The notes beneath the pieces were generated by a model that saw only the letters and a list, made by a program, of their open reading frames with translations, was not told the DNA's origin and ran no database searches. Position numbers and translations under genes: made by a program. A DNA stretch of 64,000 nucleotides from Flaccisagitta enflata (taxonomy: Eukaryota): the NCBI GenBank assembly GCA_965153355.1, contig OZ231126.1, forward strand, positions 3,472,001 to 3,536,000. Reading direction: 5' to 3'. Positions 7,316 through 45,268 of the stretch are shown here, in pieces. Each line of letters opens with the position of its first letter. Positions within the stretch are counted from its first letter, which is position 1.

Positions 7316-7442
7316 TATTTCTTCCTGCCTTTCTTGTTTTCTATTTTCATTCATTTATTCATTACTTGTTCATTCACTCTTTCTTTCTTTCTCCCTTTTT
7401 TCTTGCCCTTTTATTCTTTCTTTCTTTCTATTTTTCCTTCTC

Positions 7443-7501
<59 letters not shown>

Positions 7502-7554
7502 ATCTTTCTTTCTTTCTTTCTTTCTCTCTCTTTCTTTCTTTCTTTCTCTTTTTT

Positions 7555-7842
<288 letters not shown>

Positions 7843-8567
7843 TCTCTTTCCACCATGTGAATAACCACACCAGCCAGATTTGGTTCTCATGAATGATGCA
7901 TTGCTGGAGCACGAGAATTTCTGCTCCTGCAACTTACAAACGAAAGCAGATGGAGCACGCTTAAGATTGTGCCTACATCAGAATTGTGTAAACAAAGTTA
8001 AAAGCACGGCTCCGTTGTAAACAAACGACAACGCAAACAAATACGTGAACGCCAGAAAAAAAAAAGAAGAAAATACGCCAACCCTAATTGCTGCCAGTTG
8101 GGAAAAAAAGTGCTAAAAAAAAGAAAGAAAGAAAAAAGCTCGTAAGAAATACGGCGCGTCCGTCTGAAAATTTCAAGGACAAAAAGTTTTGAAAACATTA
8201 GAATAAAAAATATATGTTAAAAGACAAAAATTGTTTTGAAAAATGATCAAAATGCGTGTTTTCCCAGTTTTACTCGGCTGACTTTCAGATAAACAAGAGA
8301 AAAAAAATAAAAGATTGATCATCGACGGATTATCAGATGGACAGATGGACAGACGGGTGGAGGGACAAATGGACGGACTGACTTGTACAGTCGCGTAACT
8401 CGTGACTAAAACCTTGTTTCCTCTGAAATAATGGGGGAGGGGGAAATCCCTCCTCCTTCTGAAGTCTAGACTAATGCTTTGCACAAACATCACAATGAGA
8501 AAAAAACTGTCACCTAAGTTAACAGCAGACCACGACATACTTAGATCAAACACAGCATCACGGCTCG

Positions 8568-12011: not shown

Positions 12012-12034
12012 AGGTTTTTGTGAAGTGAGTGAAG

Positions 12035-12149
12035 ATGTCGCTGAAACTGAAGGTGGTGGCGTTAAACGGAAGTTTGACAAAAACAATCGAATTCCGGAAT
12101 TCAGATTTGGTCTTTGACGCCGCAAGAAAAATACAAGCTAAAATCCCAG
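12035..12149 (+). CDS. TLN: Talin coding exon 1 (FERM F0 start)
   Basis: Acceptor TTTTCAG ends 12011, ATG 12035. MSLKLKVVALNGSLTKTIEFRNSDLVFDAARKIQAKIP aligns with the talin N-terminus (LSLKI...KTMQF...VYDACRIIRERIP). Phase-1 donor GTGAAT at 12150. Confidence 0.88.
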
Positions 12150-12159
12150 GTGAATGATA

Positions 12160-15750
<3,591 letters not shown>

Positions 15751-16029
15751 ATAATTACCCATAATTCTTGGCTTAGAGATGCACCAACGCATTTTTCCCA
15801 ATTGGGGGCCTTGTGATACACTATATTACCTTATTTCCTTGAAACACCCAATTGGAAATCATGAGATTTAGCATTTCACCATTTTTTTGTGTTACACCCG
15901 ATTGGGAGCAATGCTATAGAATGAAGGAAGGGAAGGAAAGAATGAAGGAGGGAAGAAATGAATAAAAGAAAGGGATGGTGGAATGGAGGTAAGATAAGAA
16001 GGGAGGAATGGGAGGAGGGAAGGAAGGTA

Positions 16030-16947
16030 CCCTGTCTTCAAAAGCAACTGTAACCAGCAAAAGATGTATAGTGTGAAAACTAATTCTATTACATAATTCA
16101 GATTTTTTTTGTCTGTAAGCATATCAACTGCGGTTTCATCATGCCAAATTTCAGCACTTTTTGTTTAATGGTTTAGCTTCTACATCATTTTTAAAAATAC
16201 CCAAATTTCCCTCAAATGTTGCAATTTTGATGTAGAATAAAAGAATTAAGTTTATTCTACTTGGTCTAAATAACAAAAAAAAAAAAAGATTTTAAGAGTC
16301 TGCATTGATCCCATATTAAAAAATCTTTATTACTAAAATGAGTTTTGTTCATATTGTGCGTAATTCTAAGATATTGTTATTAAAATAATGAATCTTTAAC
16401 ATGAAATATTGTTGGAATATAAAAAATCAAGGAAAAACCTGGTAAAAGCATAACAAATACATGATAATGTGGGTTTTTCTAAAACTTGACATTGTCTCCT
16501 TCAAAAATTTTTCACTTTGAGAACAATCTGGAAGTTTTAACTCAAAGCGTAAAAAAGTTTTAGAGGTTTGTTTGAAAGACATCATTACACAGGAAGTATA
16601 ATCGAAGAAAAAACACTTATTTTATGGAGGATACTGTGTATTTTTACATCAATAAAATTGATGTAAAAATACACAGTATCCTCCATAAAATAAGTGTTTT
16701 TTCTTCGTTTTAGAGGTTTGAAGTCAAACACCCCATTCATGTCCAATATGAAAAGCTGTATTGCCACAAATAGTGTTTTACTTCAAAATGGTGCAGAGGC
16801 TAAACCACTTGATAAAAAGTGCTGAAATTTTTCATGAAGAAACCGCAGTTGATATGCATTATGATAGATAAAAATCCAAAGTTTGTAAAAGGAATAATCA
16901 TCACATAACATAACTTTTGCTGGTTGCAGTTGCTTTTGAAGACAGGG
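16030..16947. mobile_element. MITE with long imperfect TIRs, TA target duplication (Tc1/mariner-type ends)
   Basis: TA|CCCTGTCTTCAAAAGCAACTGTAACCAGCAAAAG ... CTTTTGCTGGTTGCAGTTGCTTTTGAAGACAGGG|TA. Confidence 0.85.
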
Positions 16948-17942
16948 TAGGAATTGAAGGAAAGAAGAAGGAACAAAGGGAGGAATCTAAAGAAGGAAGG
17001 GAGCTATGGAAACTAGTCAACCACCGATTGAACATGTTCAGCGGCACCAGAGGCCCTGCTTTGAGTGATGAGCTGCAAAAATTGAGTGAGAGCAGGGCAG
17101 TGGCCCCAAAGGACCAATGTCCTTTAGAACACAGGGGTGAATTACCAGACTTCCTATGAGGGCACTATGGAGGACTGATTTGATTTCTTACAGGGCAAAT
17201 ATGAGGCATCCAGAGGCTGATTTGAAGCCCCATAAGAGAGCCAATATGATGCATGAGGGCAGATTCGAGGCCTGAGAGGGTAATCTGAAGGCGAGATTGA
17301 AGCCAGAAAAGTCAGATTAGAGGCTTGAGTGGGCAAATTTTAGACAGAAGATGGCTTACTACAAGCATGACGGGGGTGAATTTGGATGGAGGGACAGACA
17401 TCTGGAAACTCACCTTTGTTTGCTACAGTGCAACAGTTGCTGCTGAAAAAGGGAGGAGGGTAGGAATGAAAGAGAAGAAGGAAAGAAGGAAGGCAGAAAG
17501 GGAGAAATGGCAAAAAGGAATTAACCAATGCGTCCGTCGAATCAAATGTGAAAGCATAGGTCATCGGTCCTGAAGGAAGGAAGGAATGAAGAAAGGGAGA
17601 AATGGAGGAACAAAAGAAAGAAAAGAAGGAAGGAAGGAAGGAAGGTCGTAACCAAGTAGGGAATGGATGTAAGGGAGGTTGAAATAGTAGGAAGGGTGGA
17701 TGAGAGGAATGGGTGAGGGAAGATATGTAGTTGCAAAAATGAGCACACGACTGTCGCCATCTTGTTGTAAGTGGAAAGAGGGAGACTCCTGCTATGGGTA
17801 TCTGCTATTTCCTTCGCGTCGTCTCACTGGGGGGAATTTCCTCCACTTTCCTCCTTTTTTGTCTCACTAGAGGGGATTTTAGTGAGAAAAAATTCCCTCC
17901 AGTGAGACTACATTTTTTTCCCTCAAGTGAGACACTTTTTTT

Positions 17943-18009
<67 letters not shown>

Positions 18010-18152
18010 GCTGGAACCCTCAAGATGAAGTCAACTACGGTATCTACCGGCCTCCTTCAGCATCAAATCAAAATGGAATTTGGTTGGAAACTTCCAAACC
18101 TCTCAAGCACTACCTCCTCAAGGACAATGACATCCTTGAGTACAAGTCAAAG
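18010..18152 (+). CDS. TLN: Talin coding exon 2 (F0)
   Basis: (CT)n-CAAG acceptor. (G)WNPQDEVNYGIYRPPSASNQNGIWLETSKPLKHYLLKDNDILEYKSK matches talin F0 GIWLE..K.L.YY.L...D..EY.KK. Donor GTATGT at 18153; phases match both neighbours. Confidence 0.92.
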
Positions 18153-18556
18153 GTATGTCCTTGAATTTGAAAGACTAACATAATCTCCTCAAAGACAACG
18201 ACATCTTTGAGTACAAGTCGAAGGTATGTCCTTGAAAGACTAACATTACCTCCTTGAGGTCAATGACATCCTCGAGTACAAGTCAAATGTATGTCCTATA
18301 ATTTAAAATACTAACATTTTCTCCTCAAGGACAATGACATCTTTGAATACAAGTCAAAGGTATGTCCTTGAATTTGAAAGACTAACATTACCTCCTCAAA
18401 GACAATGACATCCTCGAGTACAAGTATAAGGTGTGTCCTTGAATTTGAAAGACTAACATTACCTCCTCAAGGACAATGACATCCTTGAGTACAAGTCAAA
18501 AGTATGTCCTTGAAATACTAACATTACCTCCTCAAAGACAATGACATCCTTGAATT
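18153..18556 (+). repeat. ~67-bp tandem copies of the talin exon-2 3' end plus donor
   Basis: CTCCTCAAGGACAATGACATCCTTGAGTACAAGTCAAAGGTATGTCC, 5 diverged full copies plus 1 partial. Confidence 0.92.
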
Positions 18557-19009
18557 TAAATAGTTATTTGACTTATTTCCTTGAAACACCAACATCACCT
18601 AACAGATGTAGAATGGCCTGTACCTCCCTCTCGCCAGCAAATGAGAAAAAAAAATAACATATGAATCATTACTTGGCTTATAATCAAATTTCATGAGTGA
18701 ATTAACAATCAAGAATTGCGGTATGATCATTTGGACAAATGAACTATCGTTTGTAACATATATACCCATCACATTTAAAACAGATACTATAGGTCGTTCA
18801 CTCAAAAAAAAAAAAAACCTCGCCATTCCGAAATATTCACTTTTATGAATGTCAAATTCAGAATCCAGAATGTAGTCAGGGACAAAAACACGCAGCCCTC
18901 TTGATTATGATTAATTAAGATTTTTGGGGCTAAACAGTGCTACTCGGAAGAAAAACATTTCTAAGGGGGCTGAAGAACAGCTTTTCATCATGAGAAGGTT
19001 TCTTAGATT

Positions 19010-19119
19010 TCAGTCCTGTACAGTGAGATGTTGTGCACCTCTCAATGGTCCAACAGTGATACATCCGTACCAGCCAGAGTCTTCTTTCTTCAAATCCTTC
19101 AAAGTGTACGATACATAGT
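19010..19119 (-). CDS. Nested Ig gene 1, last exon: second half of Ig domain 2 and stop
   Basis: TTTTTTGCAG acceptor. (D)YVSYTLKDLKKEDSGWYGCITVGPLRGAQHLTVQD* has D.G.Y.C and a G-strand HLTV; TGA at 19012-19010. Confidence 0.8.
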
Positions 19120-19310
19120 CTGCAAAAAAGTAAAGGGAGAAATTGTTCCTGATTTTAAAGGTGTATGCGAAAAACTAAAGGGAGTCTTGCAAATGCTGCT
19201 CCAATCACCATCCTTCCAATTGACCACCAGGTGTTTTAGGTCGCGTGCTACGCGACTCTACAACCTGCTTTGTCGGTCCGTCCATCCGTCGGTCTGTCTG
19301 TCAGTCAGTT

Positions 19311-19665
19311 GCACCATGCATCAAAATCACCAACGACCAGGATGTAAACCAACCAACCACCCAACCCACCCATATGGCCCATAACACCATCACCATGCAT
19401 CAAAATCACCAACGACCAGGAAGTAAACCAGCCAATTACCCAACCCACCCATAGCACCATCACCGTGCATCAAAATCACCAACGACCAGGATGTAAACCA
19501 ACCAACCACCCAACCCATAACACCATCACCATGCATCAAAATCACCAACGACCAGGAAGTAAACCATCCAACCACCCAACCCACCCATAGCACCATCACC
19601 GTGCATCAAAATCACCAACGACCAAGAAGTAAATCAACCAACCACAAAACCCACCCAGAACACCA
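19311..19665 (+). repeat. ~63-bp tandem repeat inside a HINE-like element
   Basis: CACCATGCATCAAAATCACCAACGACCAGGAWGTAAACCA..., 5 copies. Confidence 0.85.
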
Positions 19666-20033
19666 CATGTCGGTTCGTCACACTTTTACTTTTTTTAATC
19701 AATTTTATTTCCTAAAGTCATTTTAATTCATTTAAGTCATTCTTAGTCATTCTTAGTCATTCTAAGTCATTATGTAAGTCACGCACGCGACTTAAAGATG
19801 TTGGCCTTGTTCAGGAGTAAGCTGGATTTTCTGTTTCTTAATATTGAGAATGGACGGACAGACGGACCAACACAGTTACGTCTGGAGTCGCTTGTCCCCG
19901 TGTAAAAACAATGAAAGCCTATCAACGACTACCTCACTGATTGATTGCCTAAGAAGTGACAATACGACATTGACCTAATTTGGAATGTCCATTGGTCCGT
20001 CCGAGACTGTTGCTCTTTGAAGGGCTTTAATAC

Positions 20034-20216
20034 CTCCATCATCGCCATTGACCAGTTGTGCTTCCAGCCTATTGGGGGCGTCAGGAGTCTTCGTTGTTCC
20101 ATATGAGTAAAAGATGAATTTTCTGCCTCCTGCTGGTCTAAACTTGAATGATGGATTGTACCTGCCTTTTGGACAGGGGGAGAATGTGAAGCTGTCTCCA
20201 ACATGGGCAACTGAAT
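20034..20216 (-). CDS. Nested Ig gene 1, exon 3: first half of Ig domain 2
   Basis: TTCTTTTCCTACAG acceptor. (D)SVAHVGDSFTFSPCPKGRYNPSFKFRPAGGRKFIFYSYG...NRLEAQLVNGDDG. Donor falls at the same GATGGAG|GT position as in exon 1. Confidence 0.75.
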
Positions 20217-20775
20217 CTGTAGGAAAAGAATGACAGATTACCAAGATATGGGCGCCAAAAGCCTCCTCAGACATATGGGATGCCCCTGTTTATTTGTTTT
20301 GTTTTGTTGTTTTTTTTTTTTCATTTAAGAAGACAGTATATTTTGTCTATCTTACAAATATACTTTTTAGTCGCCGACACGCGACACTACAGTACTACAT
20401 CTTGCCGTGTCGATTCATCTGTCGGACATGACATATCAGAATTACAAGCAGTTTTTGCATTATTAGCCCTGCCCAACCGTCCGCGACTGTCCTGCCGTGT
20501 ATCCGGCCTTGTTTTCTCCTAAACTGAAAAAAAAGCTCGAATCACGCACCTTCAAGACACAAGAAAGCACAAGAAAGCACTAGAAAGACATTGAATACAA
20601 TCTTAGACTTGCTTGCCAATAAAGCCATACTCACACCTGTATTGTGTACTTTGTACTATGATGTTTAAAACCTGGGGTTTAGAAATGTTATTCATACTGA
20701 GGAACCACATCAATGTCGTATGTACTATGTACACTTACGCTGTAAGCGGCTGTACAGTGCTAAATCGTTCCATAC

Positions 20776-20796
20776 CTGGGTTCTCTAGATGCTTAA
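20776..20796 (-). CDS. Possible 21-nt microexon of nested Ig gene 1 ((V)KHLENP)
   Basis: ATTCCTTTATAG acceptor and GTATGG donor, frame-preserving. Resembles the end of exon 2 (RLENP). Confidence 0.4.
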
Positions 20797-20861
20797 CTAT
20801 AAAGGAATCATATCAAAATTGTAAGCGCACTTTCGCTCCGCGTTGCTGCACGGTTCCAAAC

Positions 20862-20975
20862 CTGGATTTTCCAAACGTTGGATAGGCTGAGGTATGGAAT
20901 CATTGTCGTATTCACACTTGAATTCTCCCGCATCCGATGTTGTTAAATTCTCCAACACGTAGGAAATGTATTTGA
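20862..20975 (-). CDS. Nested Ig gene 1, exon 2: second half of Ig domain 1
   Basis: CTCTCGCAG acceptor. (V)KYISYVLENLTTSDAGEFKCEYDNDSIPQPIQRLENP carries the Ig L.NL...D.G.[YF].C motif. Phase 1-1, 114 nt; donor GTTTGG is weak. Confidence 0.75.
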
Positions 20976-22407
20976 CTGCGAGAGTGAGGACAAATAGTCA
21001 AAAGTTAGAAATAACAAGGCCGGATACTCGGCTACCCCGAATTCATGGATGTAAAGGAGCTCTGAAGTTTGCCACGTCCACTAAGCATTTCAAGACCGAG
21101 TCAGAATCAAGACCAACTTAATCAAAAAGTAAAAACTAAATAAAAAATATTCACTTTTTGCATTATTCATGAATGAAAATCTTCCATCTAGAGACTTTTT
21201 AGTGATATTTCAAACAAACTTAGCCAATATTTCTCTTTTAAAATTGTTTTTCAATGAAATTTCTAATTTTTCAAACCTTGAATCACTCCTTTTTGGGCAG
21301 CGGCCCCAAAGGGCCGATGTCCTGTAGGATACAGGGGTGAATTTCCAGACGTCCGTCCGTACGTACGTCTGTCCCCCCCCCCCGAGGCCCCTCTCAGGCC
21401 CCAAATCAGCCCTCTCAGACCCCAAATCAGCGCTCTCAGGCCCCAAGTCTGCCCTCTCAGACTTAAAATCGCCCCTCTCAGGCCTAAAGTCGGCCCTTCT
21501 ATATCCTAAATTAGCTCACTCAAGCCCAAAATCAGCCCATTAAGGCACTAAATCAGACTTGTCAGGCCCCAATTCAACCATTTCAGGCCTGAAATTAGAC
21601 CTCTCAAACCTAAAATCTGTCTCAATTCAGCCCTCGAAATGACCTTCTCAGGTTCAAATCTGCCCTCATCCCTGTTCTCCAATCAATCAACTCAGTCCTG
21701 AAATGTGCTTTCTCACGACGTCTGGAAATTCACCCCTGTGTCCTACAGGACATCGGCCCTTTGGGGCCGCTGCCCTGCTCCCACTCAGCTTCTTCAGCTA
21801 ATCACTCCAAGCAGGGCATCGGGTACCGCTGACCATGTGCAATCCTTGGATGACTAGTTCAAGTCCGACTTGGTTTTCAGGACCGACTTTTACCACGTCC
21901 ATGGACGTGGTGGACATGGCGTCCCCTACATCCATGACCCCAATCTCGAGTGGGCAGGGGTGATGATAGAAAAGGACACTGGGGCATTTTGGCTGGAGCA
22001 GTGAGCTCAAAAAGCTCAAAAACGCCGAAATAGTAAAAAGGGGACCAACCAACCAATGATTGAACATTTTTGAAGGAAACTGAATTTAATAAACGAGGTT
22101 GTATGAAAATTGAAAATAGAGTAACAGGAATTTTGAAAGAGGTAACCATTGTCTCTTTAAAACATGTGTATATTACTTCAAGAACCAAGGTCAAAGGAGT
22201 TGAATCAGAATGGCAATAACTAAAATGCATAAACAAATGATTATCAAATCTGATGATATGAATGACATGATATTTATATCAATGAGTAACCTAGGGTTAC
22301 AATGTTTTCATAACAAATTTGCAGTATCAGGGCACAGTACAGTGTGCAGTATCAGTGTACAGCTGCAGTACAGTGTATGGTGCAGTGTAAGTGCAAGTAG
22401 TCAATAG

Positions 22408-22959
22408 GCTGTCTCACCTTCATAGACAGACTCTAGTGGTTTCACTTTGAGTCTGTCCGTCGTGCCTGGACGCTTTTCATCTATCACTGTATACATACAT
22501 ATGTCAACAGACTGTTTATAGACTGTCTATAGACTGTCTCACCTCCATCGACCGACTCTAGTGGTTTTACTTTGAGTCTGTCCATTGTGCCTGGACGCTT
22601 TTGTTTTCTGTTTACATACATATGTCTACAGACTGTCTATAGACTGTCTACAGACTGTATACAGACTACCTATAGACTGTCTTTAGGCTATCTTACCTCC
22701 ATCGACCGACTCTAGTGGTTTCACTTAGAGTCTGTCCGTCGTGCCCGGACGCTTTTGTTCACTGTATACATACATATTTCTACAGACTTTCTACGGACTG
22801 TCTATAGACCGTCAATAGACTGTTAATAGACTGTCCATAGACTCTCTTCCCTCCATCGACCGACTCTAGTGGTTTCACTTAGTCTGTCCGGCGTTTTTTG
22901 GCGCTTTTGTTCACAGACCGTCTACAGACTGTCTACAGGCTCTCTATAGACTGTCTTAC
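22408..22959 (-). repeat. Four tandem copies of the nested Ig gene 1 exon-1 3' end plus donor
   Basis: (+) GTCTYACCTCCATCGACCGACTCTAGTGGTTTCACTTTGAGTCTGTCCGTCGTGCCYGGACGCTTTT, separated by AGACTGTCTA-type repeats. Confidence 0.9.
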
Positions 22960-23236
22960 CTCCATCGATCGACTCTAGTGGTTTCACTTTGAGTCTGTCC
23001 GTCGTGCCCGGACGCTTTTGGTCCCCGTATGCAATCAAATGCCACCAAAAATCCCCAGCTGGCCTATGTTGGAAAACGGGGCCGTATTCATCCACAGGAC
23101 ACAGCAGGAATTGATGATTTTGACCGACTTTCAACATTTCCGAGTGGACTTGATGCCCTTTGGATGCCAGAAGGGCCAAAATGATGCAGGACGAGGCGCG
23201 GAAGAACGAATTTGCGGCGATTGATGCCATAGCCAT
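22960..23236 (-). CDS. Nested Ig gene 1, exon 1: signal peptide plus first half of V-type Ig domain 1
   Basis: MAMASIAANSFFRASSCIILALLASKGHQVHS then EMLKVGQNHQFLLCP...VFQHRPAG..HLIAYG...DRLKV...DG. Phase-1 donor GTAAGA at 22959. Confidence 0.72.
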
Positions 23237-23294
23237 TGTGATAGGTGTCGAATATTCTCGTGAAACTTCGTATCTCTATTTTTACGGGGATTTT

Positions 23295-23536
23295 GGGTGC
23301 GTTTCTAGTCATAGACAATCGCGTTTTTAACGGGCCACTCAGTCGCTCGCACCGCTTACCAGCTCCACAGCGCACCACTTTACAATGCTTGCTTTGCTTG
23401 CTCGCGCCGTTCACGGTCTCGCTCACTCACTTCGCTAACTCCCTCATGGGGCAGTAAAATTTTTGAATATGTGTTCATAATGTAAATGCGTTCAATGGGA
23501 ACAAACGCGTTTTTGGTCGTCACTAGAAACGCACCC
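23295..23536. mobile_element. Short MITE just upstream of nested Ig gene 1
   Basis: 15-bp TIR GGGTGCGTTTCTAGT / ACTAGAAACGCACCC. Confidence 0.75.
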
Positions 23537-24666
23537 TTAGTTGTAGGAATATGAATGGGTCGGTATTCATAAAAGGAAATTGATCCACAGGGCGATCTTT
23601 GTCAACAAGGCCAAGTAGACAAATAAGTGCGCCGGGTGGGTTGTCAAACGTTTGCGTGACCATTGACCATTGGTGATTGGGCGGGGGTGAGGGCGTGATG
23701 GGGTAGGGGTAGGGGCTTGATTGGGCAGGGGTAGGGGCTGGATTGGGCAGGGGCAGGGGCTTGATTGGACGGGGCGATTATGCCCGAGATTTTGCATCAT
23801 GAAATAATATGGTCTTATGGACCAACCTAACCATTTACCGAGGATTAGACCCTCTCATGGAATAATAAACAGTATTTTTTCAGTCGCACAAACGCGCCGC
23901 TTTGTCGGTGCATAGGTCCGTCCGTCCGTACGTACGTCTTTTTCCATGGTTTTGACATAGCTGCCCCTGCATAAATGCCCGTGTGATCTCCCACATCACT
24001 GCCCCTGCACATCCACACGTAATTTGCCGACTGGCCTTTTTTCATAGTCTTCCAGATACTTATCACACCGGAGTTACCTATAAGCAAACTGAAGTGGTAC
24101 TTTCTGTAGCCACACAAAGCATCGCTCTCATCGCATTTCTGTTGCAGTTTCATATTTTGCATAGCCACACAAAGCAGCGCTCTCATTGCAGGCCTGTATA
24201 TAATTGAGTTTTCTTTTATATAACTTTTGACAGTACCAAATCATAAACACTAGTTATTAAAACACGATTTAGCACTATTTAAACGTAAACCACACTGTTT
24301 ATTGCTTTATGGGGAAGAAAATCATAGATTTCAAAATGCATCGCGTTGCGTCGCGGGAAAGAAAATCAAAGGCAGGGTCGGGGGGAATCAAAAGCGACTC
24401 AATTATATACACCCATGCATTTTTGTTAGACTGTTACAATGTCTTCCTTTCATGAACTATGAAGACATGAACTCAGTAAGGGGATGAGCCGAACTTTGAT
24501 AGCAGATAAAGCAATCTTTGTGCAATTGTCAATCAGTCTTCATGCGACTACAAAAAGGAAGTAAACAAATTCCCACGTAATTCTTTTCTTTTCTTTTTTT
24601 TTCTTTTTTTCTTTTTTTCTTTTTTTCTTTTTTTCTTTTTTTAATTTTTTCTTTTTTTCTTGTTTT

Positions 24667-25226
24667 CAGCGGCCCCGAAGGGGTCGATGACCTATGCTTT
24701 CACACATGGGGGAAATTTCTCCTCCTCCTCCTTCTCCTCCTTCTCCTTTGTACCCCCCCCCCTCAAATCCCAGCCTCAAGGCCCAAATCCCAGCCTCAAG
24801 GCCCAAATCCCAGCCTTGAGGCCCAAGTCTTAGCCTCAAGGACCAAATACCAGCCTCGAGGCCCAAAACCTAGCCTGGAGGCCCAGATCCCAGCCTTGAG
24901 GCCAAAATCTCAGCCTTGAGGTTCAAATCCCAGCAAAGAGACCCAGATCCCAACCTCGAGCCTGAGATTTGGTCCTCGAGGCTGCGATTTGGGCCTCAAG
25001 ACTGGGTTTTGGGCCTGGAGGCTGGGATTTGGGCCTTGAGGCTGGGATTTGATGGGGGGACGGAGGAGCAGGAGAAGGAGGAGGAGGAGGAGAAATTTCC
25101 CCAATGTGTGAAAACATAGGTCATCAACCCCTTCGTGGCCGCTGCCCTGCTCCCCCTTCAACTTTAAGCATAACCTACGTTAGCAGGGCACAGGTACCGC
25201 TGACCATCTAACGCTTTTGCGACTAT
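24667..25226 (+). mobile_element. Interspersed element with internal ~21-bp tandem repeats (family D; relatives at ~5135-5370, 9860-10645, 10660-11008, 21293-21856, 33700-34130)
   Basis: CAGCGGCCCCGAAGGGG..GATGACCTATGCTTTCACACAT end and its inverted copy, internal (GAGGCCCAAATCCCAGCCTT)n, shared 3' GGTACCGCTGACCAT tail. Confidence 0.65.
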
Positions 25227-27725
25227 TTCTTTTCTTTTTTTCTTTTTCTTTTTTTTTCTTTTTTTTATCCTTTTTATCTTTTTTTTTCCCTTTTTTTTCT
25301 TCATTTTCTTTTTTTTTTCTTTTTATCTTTTTTTCCATTTCTTTTTCTTTTTCCTCTTTTTTTTTCTTTTTTTTTCTTTTTTTCTTTCTTTTTTTTTTTC
25401 TTTTTTTCCTTTTTATCCTTTCTTGTCATCTCCATCGCAAACTTTTGTCATAGGTTTGAGTAACTTTACTATATTTTGACCGTCCTCAGATCTAATTGAA
25501 ATATTAAAGGCTCTCAGAGTACTGACCAGAATACTGACAAAGTATCTTCTAATTTTCCGTTCGTATCTCTGCTATTTTGTCACTACAAAACTCGTTTTTG
25601 AGTGCTAGATATCTGAAGATGATTAAGTTATTTGAGACCAATCCCAGCTCAATTTGTAACATCGCCTCAAATGAGAAAAAAATGATTTAGACGCATCCTA
25701 AGCTGTTAAATGTATTTCTCTGCAGAGTTACAGAGTGTCCACTGCTGTTTACTGCTTCATATCAATCTTTGTTATAATGCGATGAACGCACATATGAGAA
25801 ATTTAAAATCAATCAATCAATCACAGCAAAATTCTTTATTTTCCGGTTTTGATTTTCGGTTTGAGAAATTTTTCCTTGAAATCCTTGATAACGTTAATCC
25901 TCAGTCTCTTCCGGCGGGCCTGAAATTTAAAATGTTATTAGTTCAGAAAAATGAATGATAAAAGTACTGCGTTTTGAGAATTTGATAATGGTGGCAAGTG
26001 TCACGCTTCGGCAGCAAGCAAGGGTGCCCGACTCTCCAACATCTTAAGAGTAACCAGGCTTGAGCTATGGCTTTGAACTATGAATCAATGGTTTGATGTC
26101 ATCCCTAATAGTCAGGTGTACATTATCGAACCTATTTTTGAGACACTCGTGACCCCTAGGGGGCCCTTAATTAGGGTCAAATGGTCAAATTTGGCTTGTC
26201 TCCTGCTTGTCTCCACATGAAAAGTGCAAGCAGAAGCAATCAAAGAATGTCTAAATGGACCGTATCATGACTCCTTATAATTTATTATTAATCACTTGAA
26301 ACGTACAAAAAATTTGTTTGAGCTCCGTTGACCATAAGTTCCTTAAAAACGGTTTTCTAGCGTTCAGTACACCCTCTCTATTTTTGAGCGAAATTTCACT
26401 CAGATCACAGTATAATAATTATTATTTTTTAAAACTTAACTTTGCTTCATAGTTAAGCATATTATGTTTGTTTGTCTGAAAGACAACTACTTGAAGGGTA
26501 TATTTCCCAAATTTCATGTTTCCAAGTGGCTCCAAAGCGGCTCAATTGCATTTTTTCTAGAGCGTATCAATTCGCGCACACCCCCAGATTTGTTCCTAAC
26601 GCATACCTAACGCTTAAGATATGCCACTATGGCGTGAAAACGAAACAATTTACACAAAATCTGATCACACCACGTGAAAGAGCGTGAAATTTTGAATCTA
26701 AACTGAAAATTTCAAGTCTTAACTACCAGACGTTTGGTCACAATGAAATTTTACATTTTGTTGGTCCTGAAGTGTGAACAGAATTGATACGCTCATTGAC
26801 GGCTCATTGTAGTTAATTCTTTGTTTCCACACAGCGCTCCTCACACAAATGCGCGATGCTTTTTTGTCTTAATTTGATAAAATTTCTTAAAATTAAAATT
26901 GGCATATCTCAGGAACTGTTCGAGCTAGCCCATTGAAATTTTGCATGGTTAGTACCTAGACCAAGAGGGTCTTTTGCTTAAATTCTGATGCGACCTACAG
27001 AATGTCAAGCAGTCCAACCAGACCAACCAGCCTACTAGATGAAAAAATGAAAAAATGGCATAACTTCTAAAGTAATTGTCCGATTTGGTTGAAATTTTTC
27101 ATGAAGCTTCCTTTAAAGGTTCCTCGTCACTGACATAAAAAAGAGCTTGGGGAAAAAATATTTTCTTCCGACAGCCCACCCAGCCAGAAATGGTACTTAT
27201 AGAGATTTTTTTAAAAAACTATTAAAATTCAAAAAGATTTCAGAAACATGATCTCACATGTTTGCTTGAACCTTATCAATAAGAATTCAACTGTCAAATT
27301 GATTTCTTAGTTGAATTTAGCTAAATTTTCTAGTAATAAAATTGCCAACAATATCTATTTAAGTAGTCCATATCCGTTTACTGAATTTTGAAACTTTTTT
27401 TGCAAAAGTTCTAAAACACAACTTGATTATGTTGTATGGGCAAAAAACAAACTGACTAGAACAAATTTCAGGTCAATAGCTCGATTTCCCATAGAGGATA
27501 AATTCAAATTAAGGTTTTTACAATGAGCAGATTTTTCGCGCACTCGCATTTCAATCGATAGGAACGATATTCGAGTCTGATGTACCATGTAATTAAAGCA
27601 AAACGTGTTACATGAATCGGACCTAACTTTTATGACAAGGCTTCGCCTAGAAGAGAGGAAAACATAAAAAAGTCCTTTCTTTTCAATCAGAGAGCTTTTT
27701 TCTCTCTCTCTGTCTCTCTATTGTG

Positions 27726-27772
<47 letters not shown>

Positions 27773-27779
27773 AAAAAGG

Positions 27780-29850
27780 CCAACTCATTCTGAGCTGAAA
27801 ATCATTTTCCAGAATCTGTACAAGCAAATGATCACACCTGTTGAAGGACTCCGATTTAGCTCCATTGAAAGGCATGCTCTACCCACGCTACAGGGTCATC
27901 CACCTGAGTTGTCGGATTCTGTTAAGCTTTTACTCTCAGATGCAAAGAGACATGGATTTGAAATTGATCAAGTCTTAAAGAGTATGGATTGACATTTTTT
28001 GTATAAAAATTTCAGCCATTTTGGTCAAGCAGTTTGTCTTTTACGTAAATTTGAAGTAACACAAGTATTTTACCATTTTACAGATTGTCCATCAGAAATT
28101 CAGAATTCTGCTTGCATTCATGTTCATTCTTTTTTTACTATTCATGCCATAGAGAGAAAATTAATCTCCAATGGAAGATAAACTGACAAACATATTGCAA
28201 TACTTTAATATCATCACTGATTCAAGCCTGTTTTGGATTGATTACTAAAAAAATTCAAAAACTAATTGGGGTGTTAACATGCGCAATTCCTAGAAAATCT
28301 GCTCAGTCTTGAAATAAAAGCTTTACGTAAAAATCCATGTTAAAGACAAACTACTTGACCAAAATGGCTGAAATTTTTATGCAAAAAATGTCAATCTATA
28401 CTCTTTAAGACTTGATCAATTTCAAATCCATGTTTCTTGGCATCAGAGAGTAAAAGCTTAACAGAATCCGACAACTCAGGTGGATGACCCTGTATCTGAT
28501 GGATTTGCTAGAGAATACAAAAAAACATGGCTGACTTCTTTCAAAAAAAAGTTGGAGGAATTTGATGCAGACAAGTTGGAAAATGCCATGCAAACAGTGA
28601 TGAAAATGCTCGCAAATTGCCTTTCAAGCCAGCGTGGCATTCAGTATGAGTTTGGCCCTGAGTACACAGAGTATCTTGCTCAAAAAGCTACAGGGACCTT
28701 AAAGCAGTCACACCTGAGACCACTTTCAGAGATTTTCTCTGATGGACAGCTTGACAAAATCCCCATTGACAACAAAGTTAGAGAAAATTATTTTGGAGAG
28801 TTGTCAGAGCAGCTCAGAAAAAAAGGTGGATCTGCATTTCGTGCTGTTGGGGAGCGCTTAGTTCTTAGCTCAAATGCTGACTTGGCCTTCTCAAAAGGGT
28901 TAGAGAAGATGCTTAAGGACAAGGAATTGAAGAAAAGGAAGAAAAGGAAGAAGGAAATAGAGCAGCTCAATGCACAATGGTCAAAAGCCCAAAAAGATGT
29001 GGCAAGGGCTAAAATAACAGTTTCTGATGCAGAAGCAGATATCTTAGCAAGAGAGCAAGCAAAAAACAAGCAAATTTCTGACTACAAACGCAATGGAGAA
29101 AAGTTCAATTATGAAGCTCCTATGTCATCCCAGGCAGATGTAAACAAGATGTTCACAAAAAAAGTTGAGTGAACATGACCGGCTTTCCATCATGAGGAAA
29201 GAGGTAAAACTCAAGAAAATGATGTTCTCTCAGCTCCCAGCAGATTTTGTCTTGTTCAAACAGTACAATCTTTTTTCCTCTCAAATGTACAAAAATCTCC
29301 TGGATCTTCATGCTGTTGACCCGGCCAATCAAGAGACAGTCTCAAAAGCAGATATCTATGTTGCCACTGATGATCTTTCAGTCAATCCCTCACTCACTGC
29401 GTAAAAGACAAAGAAAAAAACTAGAGAAGCTCAAGTTGACACTTCAGAAACATCCCTGGTTGAGGTGGAATGGCCACCTCATGATGAAGAGTTTATTGTG
29501 TCATTAGAGGAGGATGGCTGGCTGCTTTCATTTGATGAAACTAGCAATTCCATAAAAGCTCAACAATTTAATCCCCTCAAGACAAGAGCCAAGGATGATG
29601 TGGGAAAAACCTATTGGGTTTATTCTGATGAAGAAAATGTAGATACATATGAAGAAAAGCACATCCTCTCAGTCAGGCCCTCCTTGACACTTGCCAAAAA
29701 CATCAAAAGGAAGGAGCCTGTTTTTGCATTACTCAATCATGAGTTTATTGAAGCATTTTCATCCGACCTTTATCAGAGGACAGGTTTCATGTTTTTTAAC
29801 CTGTTGTTGTCCTCATCCATACTCGTTGTAGCTCAAGGTTTTTGATACCC
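27780..29850 (+). pseudogene. Decayed putative transposase (copy 1), interrupted by a MITE
   Basis: Frameshifted ORFs 27723, 28480, 29165 and 29465 align end to end with ORFs 42696-44057 (QRGIQYEFGPEY, IP.DNKV.EN.FG, LKTRAKDD.GKTYW). Confidence 0.7.
27891..28492. mobile_element. MITE with long TIRs and TA target duplication, inserted in the transposase
   Basis: TA|CAGGGTCATCCACCTGAGTTGTCGGATTCTG ... CAGAATCCGACAACTCAGGTGGATGACCCTG|TA. Excision restores ALPTLSDGFAR. Confidence 0.9.
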
Positions 29851-30069
29851 TAAATTTTTTACCCTCAAATTATGGAACAGATTGTTATTTTGCCCAATCA
29901 AAGTCATACAATGATTTAACTGTATCTCCAGAATCACTTCACCAATAATTTCGACATTGTTCTCTGTTTAAATTGTCTCTTTTTCAGTATCTTATGCTGT
30001 GTGTGCATTTTAATTTCAATACAATAATTTGTCCAGTATAAAAAACTTGCACTTTTGATGCAAAAAGGG

Positions 30070-30167
<98 letters not shown>

Positions 30168-30759
30168 AAGAAATATGGAGAAAAAAGAAAAGAATATGAA
30201 AAGAGGCAGAAGAAGCATCAAAAAGAAGCAGCTATTCAACTTAATTGAAAGTTTTTCACAGAAATCAGCTTTCATGGCATAATCTGCGTCATAAAAGTTA
30301 GGTCCAATTGTTGTAACATATTAGCTTTATTGTTGTTGTTACATTCGGCGCTCGCTTAGGCGCTATTTCCGAAATTACGTGCTCGCGAGGGTTTTAGTTC
30401 ATAGGGAAACTTAATTTCAATTTATCCTCTATGGGAAATTGAGTTAGGGGGTTGAAATTTGCACAAATCAGTTTATAATTGGCCCATATACCAATATCTG
30501 GTCGTGTTTATAGACATTCTCATTGTTGGAGCAAAGGGATTTGGACTAATTTAAGCCTAATTTGCATGAAAAATGAGCTTACTTAAGAAAATCCAAGTAT
30601 GGATTCATATGTAAGAATAGGTAAGCTACATGATGACGAATGGTTTTGTTCAATATTCAAACATGTAAATTTGATGAATTTCATCCTGTCCATGTCGGGT
30701 TAGCATGACACAAGCCTGGTATGTCGATTCATACATAGTCTTTTGAAAATGCTCTTTGA

Positions 30760-30920
30760 TTAAATGACTGGATTGCAATAAATACGCGTGTCCAATTCCG
30801 TTCCGTTTTTGTCCAAAGCATTTGTGTCTAAATCAAATAGATGATGTTCAGGAGCATCTATGCCATCGATGGTCACATTACTACATCTGTACCTGCTATA
30901 CACAGGTGTTGTTAAGAAGC
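30760..30920 (-). pseudogene. Second degenerate or out-of-frame second-half Ig segment
   Basis: FLTTPVYSRYRCSNVTIDGIDAPEHHLFDL echoes GRYRC...PVHHLTV of the adjacent exon. I found no in-phase acceptor. Confidence 0.45.
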
Positions 30921-30948
30921 ATTATTGGTTCCATAACTGCATCCATAC

Positions 30949-31053
30949 CTGATACAGTCAGATGATGTACAGGAGTTTTCGTCGGGCCGTAATAGCATCT
31001 GTACCGGCCCGCATCAGACTTCAAATTCTCCAAGAAGTAGAAAACATATTCGA
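30949..31053 (-). CDS. Nested Ig gene 2, second half of the Ig domain (C-terminus uncertain)
   Basis: TCTTTTCTTAAG acceptor after a (TTCA)n tract. (V)EYVFYFLENLKSDAGRYRCYYGPTKTPVHHLTVS. Followed by donor GTATGG, or read-through to TAG at 30898-30896. Confidence 0.75.
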
Positions 31054-32270
31054 CTTAAGAAAAGATGAATGGATAAATGAATGAATGAATGAATGAATGA
31101 ATGAATGAATGAATGAATGAATGAATGAATGAATGAATGAATGAATGAATAAATGAATGAATGAATGAATGAATGAATGAATGAATGAATGAATAAAGGA
31201 ATGAAAGAATGAATGAATAATTGAATAAATGAATGAAAGAATGAATGAATAAATGAATGAATGAATGAATGAATGAATGAAAAAATGAATGAATGAATGA
31301 ATGAATGACTGAATGACTGAATGAATGACTCAATGAATGAATGAATGAATGAATGAATGAATGAATGAATGAATGAATGAATGATGAAAGTAACATGGGT
31401 CAGATCATTATTTATAAACGTTCGGTCAAAAAACTAAGATAAGATGAGGTGAAACTTCAGGACCGAACGACGGAATATAAGAGAATTTAGCATGTCATTC
31501 ACCCGTTTAAACTACAGTGAAACTGAAACCATGATAAGCAATGCAATCTCTCAATTTCTCAGTCAATACTTACGACACGCTTCTTTTGAGCGCGCAATTG
31601 TTTTACCAGTCAGGTTAAAATACTATATTTGTAGTTACCATTTACAATATTGATTTCTTGACCTGATTCTGAACAACTATTACAAGCTCAATACGCTTTT
31701 CAAATCCCCATTCAAGGCCAAAATACCTTTCATCAACAACACATGGATTACTTGAGATGACGTTATACTGAAAAAAAACTGATAAAATTCTTAAATTGGT
31801 CCCACGGAAAATTCTTAATCTGCTTCAAAATGAACTTTTTGGCATTTCCAAGAACATGGCTTCTTTCCTAGGCGGTGGGTCTGCCAAAACACAAACAGCT
31901 GTCTTAAGACGAGGGCCATGTTTTTAGTTTTTTTGAATTAGCTATTTTCTATGCAAATTAAGAGGCATATCTTGTGATAAAAGATAATTCTTAGGTGCGA
32001 AAATGCACCTCTATAACTTGCTGTGTCCGTTGGTTAGTCAGTCGGTCGGTCGGTCGGGTAACCCATTCGTTCGACGATCCACATGTCGCACCTTACTGGC
32101 CTACTTGGCCTTGTCTTCTGAAAAAGCTATCTTTAGGTGGGGCAAAGCACCTCTATAACTGGTTGTGTCCGTCGGTTGGTCGGTCGGTCGGTCGGGTAAC
32201 GCATTCATTCAACGATCCACATGTCGCACCTTATTGGCCTACTTTGCCTTGTTTCATTGCATATTGATAC

Positions 32271-32380
32271 ATTTCGTACTGTTAAAGTCGTCCCAACGAG
32301 AGTTCCATGCAAATTCTCAATGAGTATACTCGTCCATACGTTTTGGGTACATTGATGAGAGTGTTTGATCTATTTATCTA
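32271..32380 (-). pseudogene. Degenerate second-half Ig exon
   Basis: TTTTTCATTCAG acceptor 59 nt after the 32440 donor. Reads SNTLINVPKTYGRVYS, then after a frameshift at the expected Cys codon ENLHGTLVGTTLTVRN. An early TAG is present. Confidence 0.55.
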
Positions 32381-32439
32381 CTGAATGAAAAACTGGCTGC
32401 GACAGTGAAAATCGTGAATTGCCGCAGAGCTTGTCTTAC

Positions 32440-32597
32440 CGCCATTTATTGTCTTCACTCGCCAAGCCTTGAGTCTGTCCGGCGTATCAGGACGTCGGCC
32501 TTCACCGTAGGCAAGGGAAATCCATTCCTTCCGGCCTTCCGGCTGGAACTCGAAAATCGGCGTCCACGGTTTCAAAGGACACAACAAGAATGGGATG
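32440..32597 (-). CDS. Nested Ig gene 2, first half of the V-type Ig domain
   Basis: (S)IPFLLCPLKPWTPIFEFQPEGRKEWISLAYGEGRRPDTPDRLKAWRVKTING is clearly paralogous to gene 1 exon 1 (FLLCP, AYG, RP..DRLK). Phase-1 donor GTAAGA. Confidence 0.75.
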
Positions 32598-33423
32598 CTA
32601 ATGATTTAAAAGTACAGTCAAAATAATTTTGATCATTTGAGTGACTGTTGTTCTTATGTTATGTTATGGAGGCATATATTCCTCTGTTCTCTCTTCCCCC
32701 TTTCCCATTTTATCTCTCTCTGAAGTACTGCAGTCACTGCAGTACAGTGTAAATTATAAGGAAATTCCCATGCAATTTTGCTCCACGTTGTATCATACAA
32801 GTCAAGACCGACTGACCTACTTACAAGATGTATAGAATTGTTTTCGTATGTTACATTACACACTGCAGAAAACGTCTGATCTCTGAAACGAGGTTTTATA
32901 GTATTTAAACTGCATCTTCATATTTTCTTTCAGAAATGGATTTTTAGTCGCGTGCTACGCGACTCTACAACCCGCTTTGTCGGTCCGTCCGTCGGTCGGT
33001 CCGTCTGTCCGTCACACTTTACTTTTTTTGGGTTTTTGCGGTTTTTGGCCTCACTGCTCCTGCCCAAATGATGGAGTGACCTCAATTATGGCCCCTGCCC
33101 ACCCGCACGCGACTGGGGTAGCCGTGTATCCGGCCTTGTTTTTTATTTCAGAGGAAACCAAAAGTACTAGTTTTCTTTTTGCATTTATCAACGTGAAAGA
33201 TATCTTTTAGAGGGAATAAAAATGATTGTTTTAAGTCAACCAGATAACTTTATACTTTATACCTTATACTTTATACTTCATAAGCTTTCCTACAGGTTTG
33301 TTTTGATTGTGAATATGAGTTTTTACTCTGAGACGATCAATAGTTATTACAGATGATTTCAAGCAACAAACATTTTGATGCAGATGACACTGCGAATATC
33401 TATTCAAAACGAATTAGAATTAC

Positions 33424-33548
33424 CTTTGTCCAATTTGTTCAACTTGACTTGTTCCTGATGGCCGTGCATCAATCGAAGTCAGATAAGAAAACGAAATGCA
33501 GAACAGCATCAAAAAATGCAGCCGGGATGTAAAGTGCGCACCCATCAT
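33424..33548 (-). CDS. Nested Ig gene 2, signal-peptide exon
   Basis: MMGAHFTSRLHFLMLFCISFSYLTSIDARPSGTSQVEQIGQ has a hydrophobic core and an IDA cleavage-like site. Phase-2 donor GTAATT matches the acceptor at 32598. Confidence 0.72.
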
Positions 33549-44913: not shown

Positions 44914-45112
44914 CTTACAGCAGATCAAGATAATCCATAGTATTATCGATAGTATTCGAATTGATTTGATAAACTAATCTTATTTTTGTATGTACCCGTC
45001 AATCTGTTCCTCACGCGATCACGTGACCACAAAAAAAACATCAAATAATCTCCCGCACAAAATTTCTTTCTTTTTTTCTCTCTTTCTTCCTTTCTTTCAT
45101 TCTTTCTTTCTT

Positions 45113-45151
<39 letters not shown>

Positions 45152-45156
45152 TTCAG

Positions 45157-45268
45157 ATTCGTAAGCTTAAAGTGCGTATGTTAGATGGCGCTGTTAAGAC
45201 GACTCAAGTCAGTGAAAGCGAAACAGTTGCACAACTCATGATCCATATCTGCTCCAAAATTGGAATCG
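45157..45268 (+). CDS. TLN: Talin coding exon 3 (F1)
   Basis: IRKLKVRMLDGAVKTTQVSESETVAQLMIHICSKIGI matches talin F1 LKIRMLDG.VKT...ICARIGI. Acceptor ATTCAG, donor GTACTT. Confidence 0.95.

What the first reader, a model, noticed from the sequence alone, without database searches (positions are those of the whole stretch)
19010..33548. Two hidden antisense genes for secreted V-type Ig-like proteins nested in the talin intron
Seen: phase-consistent GT-AG exon chains give gene 1 (signal-like leader plus 2 Ig domains, ~227-234 aa) and gene 2 (signal peptide plus 1 Ig domain). Both have the B-strand Cys, the D-x-G-x-[YF]-x-C motif and (in two of three domains) a terminal HLTV, with no transmembrane segment found. 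The canonical C-strand Trp appears replaced by Phe (VFQHRP, SFKFRP, IFEFQP). Established: these motifs define Ig V/I-set folds. Inference: a divergent lineage-specific family of small secreted Ig proteins, possibly for recognition or immunity.
Basis: partly seen in the sequence, partly recalled or inferred. Interest (0 to 1): 0.78.

Follow-up and report, generated by a model that had tools for sequence, protein, structure and literature searches.

The report
Two secreted Ig genes inside talin
Two small, expressed genes for secreted proteins built from unusual antibody-like (V-type immunoglobulin) domains sit back to front inside a long intron of the talin gene; they are real and belong to a rare, unnamed branch of a very well known protein superfamily.

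Summary
On the minus strand there are two GT-AG exon chains. Gene 1 has 4 exons (23236-19010) and encodes 227 aa.

Three proteins assembled from marine eukaryotic metatranscriptomes (P0001, P0011, P0002) match the spliced products across all six exon junctions. They end exactly where the window's stop codons lie, so both genes are transcribed and spliced as predicted.

Pfam gives only sub-threshold Ig hits. Predicted structures, however, are clear V-set Ig sandwiches: VIA-align Z 10.4 (rmsd 2.5 A over 99 residues) to pIgR D2 and myelin P0, and at least 500 Foldseek hits with E <= 0.001.

Each protein has one N-terminal hydrophobic leader, one Cys pair per domain 66-67 residues apart, and no membrane segment.

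Both genes lie antisense in the roughly 27-kb talin intron between the F0 and F1 exons. Only 7 credible relatives exist among 1.84 billion representative proteins. One is a 629-aa five-Ig transmembrane protein that carries this domain at its tip.

Function is inferred: soluble V-domain binding proteins in cell-surface recognition. An immune role is neither supported nor excluded. This is a new, divergent branch of a known kind, of moderate interest.

The parts
22960..23236 (-). Gene 1 exon 1. Carries the start ATG at 23236, a hydrophobic leader, and the N-terminal half of Ig domain 1 (B-strand Cys46, motif VFQHRP). Ends with a phase-1 GTAAGA donor.
20862..20975 (-). Gene 1 exon 2. C-terminal half of Ig domain 1, with D-A-G-E-F-K-C (Cys113) and an NLT sequon. 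Phase 1 at both ends.
20034..20216 (-). Gene 1 exon 3. N-terminal half of Ig domain 2, with Cys145 and motif SFKFRP.
19010..19119 (-). Gene 1 exon 4. C-terminal half of Ig domain 2, with D-S-G-W-Y-G-C (Cys211) and HLTVQD. Stop TGA at 19012-19010.
33424..33548 (-). Gene 2 exon 1. Start codon(s) and signal-like leader. Ends with a phase-2 GTAATT donor.
32440..32597 (-). Gene 2 exon 2. N-terminal half of the single Ig domain, with Cys48 and motif IFEFQP.
30949..31053 (-). Gene 2 exon 3. C-terminal half of the Ig domain, with D-A-G-R-Y-R-C (Cys114) and HLTVS. Ends with a phase-1 GTATGG donor.
25894..25919 (-). A 26-nt mini-exon encoding GPPEETED plus stop TAA. It matches the C-terminus of P0002.
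25835..25840 (-). AATAAA poly(A) signal 54 nt after the gene 2 stop codon.
22425..22894 (-). Tandem array (period 154 nt) in gene 1 intron 1. It repeats the last ~65 nt of exon 1 together with its splice donor. Four degraded partial copies.
12035..12154 (+). Host gene talin, first coding exon (start of the F0 domain).
18009..18152 (+). Host gene talin, second F0 exon. The host intron begins at 18153. Boundaries were read by eye from the translation.
45157..45268 (+). Host gene talin, next exon (start of the ubiquitin-like F1 domain). The host intron ends at about 45156. Boundaries are approximate.

Best explanation
Shown. These are two real, transcribed, tandem paralogous genes on the minus strand, nested in the ~27-kb intron between the F0 and F1 exons of talin. 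Gene 1 encodes a leader plus two V-set-like Ig domains. Gene 2 encodes a leader, one such domain and an 8-residue acidic tail. Each domain is split in the middle by a phase-1 intron, at a position shared with relatives from other sources.

Inferred (about 0.9). Both proteins are secreted and soluble.

Inferred mechanism (about 0.4). They act outside the cell as free V-domain binding modules. They would be soluble counterparts of the membrane-distal domain of an IgSF adhesion or recognition receptor of the P0008 type. They would bind another Ig domain, possibly themselves as dimers, and so tune cell-cell or cell-matrix recognition as ligands or decoys.

The confidence given is for the whole statement, mechanism included.
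For: Gene models. All introns are GT-AG and the phases are consistent.

Expression and splicing. P0001 (232 aa) matches spliced gene 1 at 208 of 227 aligned residues. P0002 (137 aa) matches spliced gene 2 at 111 of 128 aligned residues. Together they span all six junctions and end at the window's stop positions. Their source, 'merc', is a catalogue assembled from 775 marine eukaryotic metatranscriptomes (10.1101/386110, passages read).

Fold.
- AF2 model of P0002: pLDDT 73.1.
- VIA-align against 48,161 chains: 243 with Z >= 8. The top matches are pIgR D2 (Z 10.4, rmsd 2.5 A, 99 aligned), MPZ (Z 10.4), NITR11 (Z 10.3) and CAR D1 (Z 10.3).
- Foldseek: at least 500 hits with E <= 0.001, all listed top hits being Ig domains, nearly all V-type.
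- The P0001 model best matches two-V-domain chains such as scFv and diabodies, E about 3e-8.
- The nearest language-model clusters are V-set, score 0.94.

Secretion. The only 19-residue hydrophobic peak is at the N-terminus: KD 1.66 for gene 1 and 1.46 for gene 2. There is no C-terminal hydrophobic tail. Gene 1 has two N-x-S/T sequons. The Cys pairs are 46-113, 145-211 and 48-114.

Link to a receptor. P0008 (629 aa) carries this domain at its N-terminus, 33% identical to P0002 with pairwise E 2e-16. It is followed by canonical Ig domains above the Pfam cut-offs. A hydrophobic stretch and a tail follow those (sequence; read by eye, no hydropathy run).

Self-association. For the P0002 homodimer (residues 28-137, two copies) the verdict was that the model supports binding but does not show it. 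The score was 0.34 against a best control of 0.00. The mark was reached by 21 of 30 proteins solved as pairs of one chain and by 0 of 23 solved as single chains. On eukaryotes it was reached by 17 of 29 and 0 of 30. The runs agree in at least 84% of their contacts, and the partner's pLDDT is at least 85.
Against: - No Pfam Ig model reaches its gathering score: Ig_3 20.9 bits against 30, V-set 18.5 against 26, ig 16.1 against 21.8.
- A family profile against PDB sequences gives only a marginal hit, neuroplastin at E 0.0075.
- The model confidence is middling. It is low for gene 1 domain 1 (overall pLDDT 62.8; residues 121-133 below 50).
- The models are of database proteins 87-92% identical to the window's products, not of the window's own spliced proteins.
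- The dimer score barely passes its mark (0.34 against 0.32). The tool warns that a pass may come from memory of solved Ig pairs. The interface it gives uses the B, D and E strands, not the GFCC' face used by most adhesion V domains.
- P0008 is only about 30% identical and may come from another organism.
- No signal-peptide predictor was available.
- No canonical poly(A) signal lies within 2.6 kb downstream of the gene 1 stop.
- No partner, tissue or phenotype is known.
Confidence: 0.55

Rival explanations
1. The same secreted V-type proteins work in innate immunity. They would be soluble pattern-recognition or opsonin-like molecules that bind microbes, in the manner of hemolin or the V-region chitin-binding proteins.
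For: - They are small and secreted, with tandem V-type domains.
- Three variants 88-93% identical exist, two of them from one source run.
- The leader is the most variable part, 12 of the first 32 positions.
- The top fold hits include immune receptors such as NITR11, TCR V domains, VNAR and pIgR.
- Hemolin is a secreted invertebrate IgSF immune protein whose gene has introns within Ig domains (PMC11999971, passages read).
Against: - Variation is not focused on loops: 10 of 97 strand positions vary against 13 of 103 non-strand positions.
- There is no lectin, chitin-binding or fibrinogen effector domain.
- Only two genes are present in 64 kb, with no expanded cluster.
- Fold matches to immune receptors tie with matches to adhesion molecules; Z values lie within 1 of each other.
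Confidence: 0.25
2. The two chains are fragments of a larger membrane protein whose further exons (more Ig domains, a transmembrane segment) lie elsewhere. On this reading the products are not small secreted proteins.
For: - The relative P0008 is a 629-aa transmembrane protein with this domain at its tip.
- Gene 2 exon 3 ends in a usable phase-1 donor.
Against: - Both RNA-derived proteins stop exactly at the window's in-frame stop codons...TVQD and ...PE(T/P)ED.
- P0001 starts with its own Met and leader.
- AATAAA lies 54 nt after the gene 2 stop.
- No other family exon is found among the 2543 six-frame segments of the window.
Confidence: 0.05
3. The loci are transcribed but decaying or functionless, as pseudogenes or passengers of a mobile element. 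The Ig likeness would then be a relic.
For: - The intron is full of repeats and two element-like ORF sets.
- The 3' end of exon 1 is tandemly duplicated.
- No canonical poly(A) signal lies near gene 1.
Against: - The reading frames are intact in the window and in three independent RNA-derived variants.
- All structural residues (the Cys pairs, D-x-G-x-Y-x-C, the P-x-G turn) are kept between paralogues 33-44% identical and in distant relatives.
- The mid-domain intron position is kept in relatives.
Confidence: 0.05

Closest known systems
V-set Ig domains of cell-surface receptors and adhesion molecules (pIgR D2, myelin P0/MPZ, CAR D1, NITR11, JAML, shark VNAR)
   Same: Same predicted fold and size, with Z 9.8-10.4 and rmsd 2.5-2.9 A over 96-102 residues for pIgR D2, MPZ, NITR11, CAR D1 and JAML (VIA); shark VNAR heads the Foldseek list (E 1.1e-05). 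They share the B-F disulfide spacing and the D-x-G-x-Y-x-C motif.
   Different: Sequence identity is only 10-19% for those five VIA matches. No Pfam Ig model reaches its cut-off. There is no Trp in the C strand of the window's three domains. The N-terminal half has its own signature: C-P, P-x-F-x-[FHW]-x-P-x-G, Y-G, R-P-x-x-P-[DN]-R-L.
P0008, an unnamed 629-aa five-Ig transmembrane protein from an assembled public run
   Same: Its N-terminal domain belongs to this family: 33% identical to P0002 over the whole domain, pairwise E 2e-16.
   Different: It continues with canonical Ig_2, Ig_3, C1-set and C2-set_2 domains. After those comes what looks by eye like a membrane anchor and a Pro-rich tail (sequence). 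The window's genes stop after one or two family domains.
V-region-containing chitin-binding proteins (VCBPs) of amphioxus and Ciona (recalled; no paper was read here)
   Same: Secreted, with two tandem V-type domains at the N-terminus, as in gene 1.
   Different: VCBPs end in a chitin-binding domain. Gene 1 ends right after domain 2. No sequence similarity was seen in any search.
Drosophila Beat-Ia and insect hemolin (PMC11999971, passages read)
   Same: Beat-Ia is a secreted IgSF protein that modulates adhesion. The hemolin gene has introns within Ig domains, as these genes do.
   Different: No sequence relation was found. Hemolin has four Ig domains. As recalled, Beat proteins have a Cys-rich C-terminal part.

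Membership tests
Immunoglobulin superfamily, V-set domain | Two-sheet beta sandwich with V-type strand content, matching solved V domains | tested here: met
   Tested on P0002 and P0001, which are 87-92% identical to the window's products. VIA Z 10.4, rmsd 2.5 A, 99 aligned; 243 of 48,161 chains at Z >= 8. Foldseek gave at least 500 hits with E <= 0.001.
Immunoglobulin superfamily, V-set domain | Conserved Cys in strand B and Cys in strand F about 65-75 residues apart | tested here: met
   Cys 46-113 and 145-211 in gene 1, and 48-114 in gene 2. The disulfide itself was not tested.
Immunoglobulin superfamily, V-set domain | D-x-G-x-Y-x-C motif at the E-F turn and F strand | tested here: met
   DAGEFKC, DSGWYGC and DAGRYRC, in 3 of 3 domains.
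Immunoglobulin superfamily, V-set domain | Invariant Trp in strand C packing on the disulfide | tested here: not met
   The window's three domains read F-Q-H, F-K-F and F-E-F at this place. One relative, P0006, has F-E-W. Which Phe replaces the Trp could not be read, for lack of coordinates.
Immunoglobulin superfamily, V-set domain | Score at or above the Pfam gathering cut-off for V-set or another Ig model | tested here: not met
   P0001: Ig_3 20.9 against 30, V-set 18.5 against 26, ig 16.1 against 21.8. P0002: ig 13.1 and V-set 12.2. The window's single exons gave E 0.08-0.11 at best.
Secreted soluble protein | Cleavable N-terminal signal peptide, and no transmembrane segment or GPI signal | tested here: inconclusive
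   The only hydrophobic 19-residue window is at residues 6-24 (gene 1) and 10-28 (gene 2), and there is no C-terminal hydrophobic tail. No signal-peptide predictor or experiment was available.
VCBP (V-region chitin-binding protein) | C-terminal chitin-binding domain after two V domains | tested here: not met
   Gene 1 stops 16 residues after the last Cys of domain 2. There is no chitin-binding Pfam hit.
Nested antisense gene in a host intron | All exons lie within one intron of a gene on the other strand | tested here: met
   Talin F0 exons lie at about 12035-12154 and 18009-18152, and the F1 exon at about 45157 (+). Both Ig genes occupy 19010-33548 (-).

The most novel reading that the evidence does not exclude
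A lineage-restricted family of soluble V-domain proteins, possibly echinoderm. It would have been spun off from the ligand-binding head of an IgSF adhesion receptor. It has lost the canonical Trp. It would work as a self-associating secreted recognition system, either as decoys or bridging ligands for the membrane receptor or as a humoral recognition molecule of a new V-type lineage outside the chordates.
Probability: 0.2. Interest if true: 0.6.

Novelty: new variant of a known kind. Interest (0 to 1): 0.4.

Why it matters
The finding shows that two unannotated genes can be read out of raw intronic sequence and then confirmed from environmental RNA.

It also adds a sequence-divergent V-type Ig lineage. 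That lineage has no Pfam call, lacks the hallmark Trp and has a conserved mid-domain intron. It has only a handful of relatives in very large protein collections.

If the proteins prove to be soluble partners of an IgSF receptor, or humoral recognition molecules, they would bear on how V-type domains were used outside vertebrate adaptive immunity. As it stands this is one more divergent member of a huge superfamily, with function unknown.

Tried and rejected
- Pfam on the six single-exon translations gave only ig and Ig_2 at E 0.08-0.11 for two C-terminal halves. Half domains are too short.
- A family profile (A3) against PDB sequences gave 7 rows at E <= 1. The best was neuroplastin at 0.0075. 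This is too weak to show homology by sequence.
- The exhaustive profile search gave 10 rows at E <= 0.001. I dropped three. P0003 and P0010 are internally repetitive translations that match only profile positions 9-30 or 31-51, many times over. P0009 is a repeat protein that matches only positions 3-23.
- Word-based searches found nothing new. P0002 'near' returned only itself among 9 candidates. P0008 residues 25-140 returned only itself among 57 candidates.
- Two scans of metagenome contigs found no relative: 134 and 227 pattern matches, none confirmed.
- No whole genome is held, so family size could not be counted.
- Earlier findings of this scan: nothing by place or by sequence.
- Rfam at gathering thresholds and the tRNA scan found nothing in the window.
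- Literature searches for an echinoderm or sea-urchin secreted V-set family turned up nothing relevant in the listings. One preprint was checked by passages and was unrelated. These searches do not cover subscription papers, so I make no claim that the family is absent from print.
- Loop-focused hypervariability was looked for and not found.
- The taxon lead comes only from the nearest Atlas cluster of the talin rod, whose commonest phylum is Echinodermata (phylum known for 14 members), score 0.95. It is not a determination.


Full report
**What is in the sequence.** Joining them at GT-AG sites gives two frame-consistent chains.

- Gene 1 has four coding exons: 23236-22960, 20975-20862, 20216-20034 and 19119-19010. 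Its three introns (1984, 645 and 914 nt) are all phase 1. The CDS is 684 nt and encodes 227 aa.
- Gene 2 starts at 33548. Its exons are 33548-33424 (phase-2 donor), 32597-32440 and 31053-30949.
- Gene 2 exon 3 ends in a phase-1 donor, not a stop. A tblastn hit of the database protein P0002 led to a fourth exon of 26 nt at 25919-25894. It follows a 5029-nt intron with a TTTCAG acceptor and encodes GPPEETED plus TAA. The total is 137 aa.

**Is it more than chance?** A profile of the three N-terminal half-domains (A1) found two proteins among 252 word-sharing candidates in a 5.8-billion-cluster collection.

- P0001 (232 aa) aligns to spliced gene 1 with 208 of 227 residues identical.
- P0002 (137 aa) aligns to spliced gene 2 with 111 of 128 identical.
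- Both run straight through every predicted junction and end at the same residue as the window's stop codons.
- Their only source is 'merc'. The passages I read of 10.1101/386110 say this catalogue was assembled from 775 marine eukaryotic metatranscriptomes.
- A protein that skips introns of 0.6-5 kb can only come from spliced RNA. The genes are therefore transcribed and spliced as modelled, in the same or a closely related species.
- A third variant, P0011, shares its cluster with P0001.

**Fold.** By sequence alone the Ig assignment is weak.

- On P0001, Pfam gives Ig_3 at E 5e-4 (20.9 bits, cut-off 30), V-set at 0.0024 (18.5 against 26) and ig at 0.014. P0002 scores lower still.
- Single exons give E of about 0.1.
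- A family profile against PDB sequences gives only neuroplastin at E 0.0075.

By structure the assignment is clear.

- The AF2 model of P0002 was built from a 7-row alignment and has pLDDT 73.1 and pTM 0.59.
- Aligned without prefilter to 48,161 chains, it gives 243 chains at Z >= 8. The top rows are pIgR D2 (Z 10.4, rmsd 2.5 A, 99 residues), MPZ (Z 10.4), NITR11 (Z 10.3) and CAR D1 (Z 10.3). After these come TCR and antibody V domains, JAML, sodium-channel beta subunits and Kirrel2 D1.
- Foldseek gives at least 500 hits at E <= 0.001, led by shark VNAR, CD226, MPZL1 and JAML.
- The two-domain P0001 model is weaker: pLDDT 62.8, with residues 121-133 below 50. It best matches chains with two V domains, such as scFv and diabodies, at E about 3e-8. 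TM is only about 0.35, so the mutual arrangement of the domains is not predicted.
- Language-model neighbours of P0002 are V-set clusters, score 0.94.
- These models are of proteins 87-92% identical to the window's products. Spliced window proteins could not be handed to the tools.

**Hallmarks.**

- Each domain has one Cys pair 66-67 residues apart: 46-113, 145-211 and 48-114.
- Each domain has the D-x-G-x-[YF]-x-C motif.
- The canonical C-strand Trp is absent from the window's three domains. The strand reads F-x-[H/F], with the first Phe invariant in all 7 aligned sequences.
- One relative, P0006, has Trp at the second aromatic position. The second position may therefore be the true Trp site and the invariant Phe its i-2 core neighbour. 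I could not settle this without coordinates.
- The N-terminal half carries a family signature that no Pfam model recognises.

**Secretion.** In both proteins the only hydrophobic 19-residue peak is N-terminal (KD 1.66 and 1.46). There is no later hydrophobic segment and no C-terminal hydrophobic tail. Gene 1 has two N-glycosylation sequons. AF2 draws residues 8-24 of P0002 as a lone helix. No signal-peptide predictor was available, so secretion is a strong inference and not a result.

**Family.** An exhaustive profile search of 1.84 billion representatives gave 10 proteins at E <= 0.001.

- I dropped three of them: two repetitive translations and one repeat protein, each matching only a 20-residue stretch of the profile. 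Seven remain.
- P0004/P0005, P0006 and P0007 come from short assembled contigs of 555-1030 nt. They follow the family up to the Gly where the window's exons end. They then continue with K..., as an unspliced GTAAG donor would read. The mid-domain phase-1 intron is therefore conserved in the family.
- P0008 (629 aa, from a 3307-nt contig) has the family domain at its N-terminus, 33% identical to P0002 with pairwise E 2e-16. It continues with Ig domains above the Pfam cut-offs: Ig_2 41.9 bits, Ig_3 40.9, C1-set 30.9 and C2-set_2 22.1. After those the sequence shows, by eye, a hydrophobic anchor and a Pro-rich tail.
- Further word-based searches and two metagenome-contig scans found nothing more. 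No genome is held.

**Context.**

- On the + strand, FERM_f0 matches lie at 12029-12154 (E 5.5e-5) and 17931-18161 (E 1.3e-9, above the cut-off).
- A ubiquitin-like match lies in 45049-45582, FERM_M in 51574-51897 and the IRS-type PTB in 52741-53277.
- A 2271-codon open frame (53461-60276) ends in an I/LWEQ-like region.
- The translations show the talin start MSLKLKV... and the end of F0.
- Within the window the family has only these three domains, plus four degraded tandem copies of the 3' end of gene 1 exon 1.

**Mechanism.** What is shown: two expressed tandem paralogues encode V-set-like domains behind leaders. What is inferred: they act as free extracellular binding modules.

I favour a role as ligand or decoy in IgSF-mediated cell recognition (about 0.4), for three reasons.

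- The same domain caps a five-Ig membrane protein.
- There is no effector domain.
- The complex test on two copies of P0002 returned 'the model supports binding; it does not show it'. The score was 0.34 against a best control of 0.00. The mark was reached by 21 of 30 proteins solved as pairs of one chain and by 0 of 23 solved as single chains. On eukaryotes it was reached by 17 of 29 and 0 of 30. The runs agree in at least 84% of their contacts, and the partner's pLDDT is at least 85.

That pass is marginal, since the mark is 0.32, and it may reflect memory of solved Ig pairs. The interface it gives lies on strands B, D and E.

An immune, opsonin-like role (about 0.25) is not excluded. The three close variants differ at 10 of 97 strand positions and 13 of 103 non-strand positions, so there is no sign of loop-focused diversification.

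**Novelty.** The superfamily, secreted Ig proteins, intra-domain introns (hemolin; PMC11999971, passages read) and nested antisense genes (common in animals, as recalled) are all known. What is new is this sequence lineage. I rate it a new variant of a known kind, of moderate interest.

Noticed in passing
window 22425-22894 (-): The last ~65 nt of gene 1 exon 1, its GT donor and ~90 nt of intron are repeated in tandem (period 154, 2.5 copies by TRF). tblastn finds four partial copies, one of them with a stop. The duplicated donors could serve as cryptic splice sites.
   Followed up: partly
window 27651-29845 (+) and 42681-44057 (+): Two paralogous sets of long open frames, 60% identical over 149 aa and broken by stops. 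They have no Pfam family and lie in the same talin intron. The first set sits inside intron 3 of gene 2. They look like relics of a repeated or mobile gene.
   Followed up: partly
window 16331-19010 (-): No AATAAA or ATTAAA lies on the minus strand for 2.6 kb downstream of the gene 1 stop. The next one is at 16326-16331. Gene 1 therefore either uses a non-canonical signal or has a 3' UTR running antisense across talin exon 2 (18009-18152).
   Followed up: partly
window 53461-60276 (+): A single open frame of 2271 codons carries what looks like almost the whole talin rod and the I/LWEQ end. It is preceded by a (CAA)n tract that reads as poly-Q, poly-N or poly-T. The nearest Atlas cluster of its C-terminal 1424 aa has Echinodermata as commonest phylum (score 0.95), which is only a lead for the taxon.
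   Followed up: partly
window 62175-62786 and 63314-63862 (+): WD-repeat exons just downstream of talin resemble Arp2/3 complex subunit 1 (ARPC1). The name is by eye and from recall. One exon carries an (AAC)n-encoded Asn run.
   Followed up: no
window 150-989 (+): A long open frame rich in Lys, Glu and Asp with a Cys/His-containing start. It is probably the last exon of another + strand gene upstream of talin. No Pfam hit at E <= 0.01.
   Followed up: no
whole window, e.g. 7125-7892, 12100-15830, 31065-31388, 46300-49500: Very high density of microsatellites and minisatellites: (AG)n, (AC)n, (CAA)n, (ATGA)n and units of ~180 nt. There are also repeated SINE-like units with GACGGACC-type cores, for example 31991-32252 and 32979-33013.
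   Followed up: no
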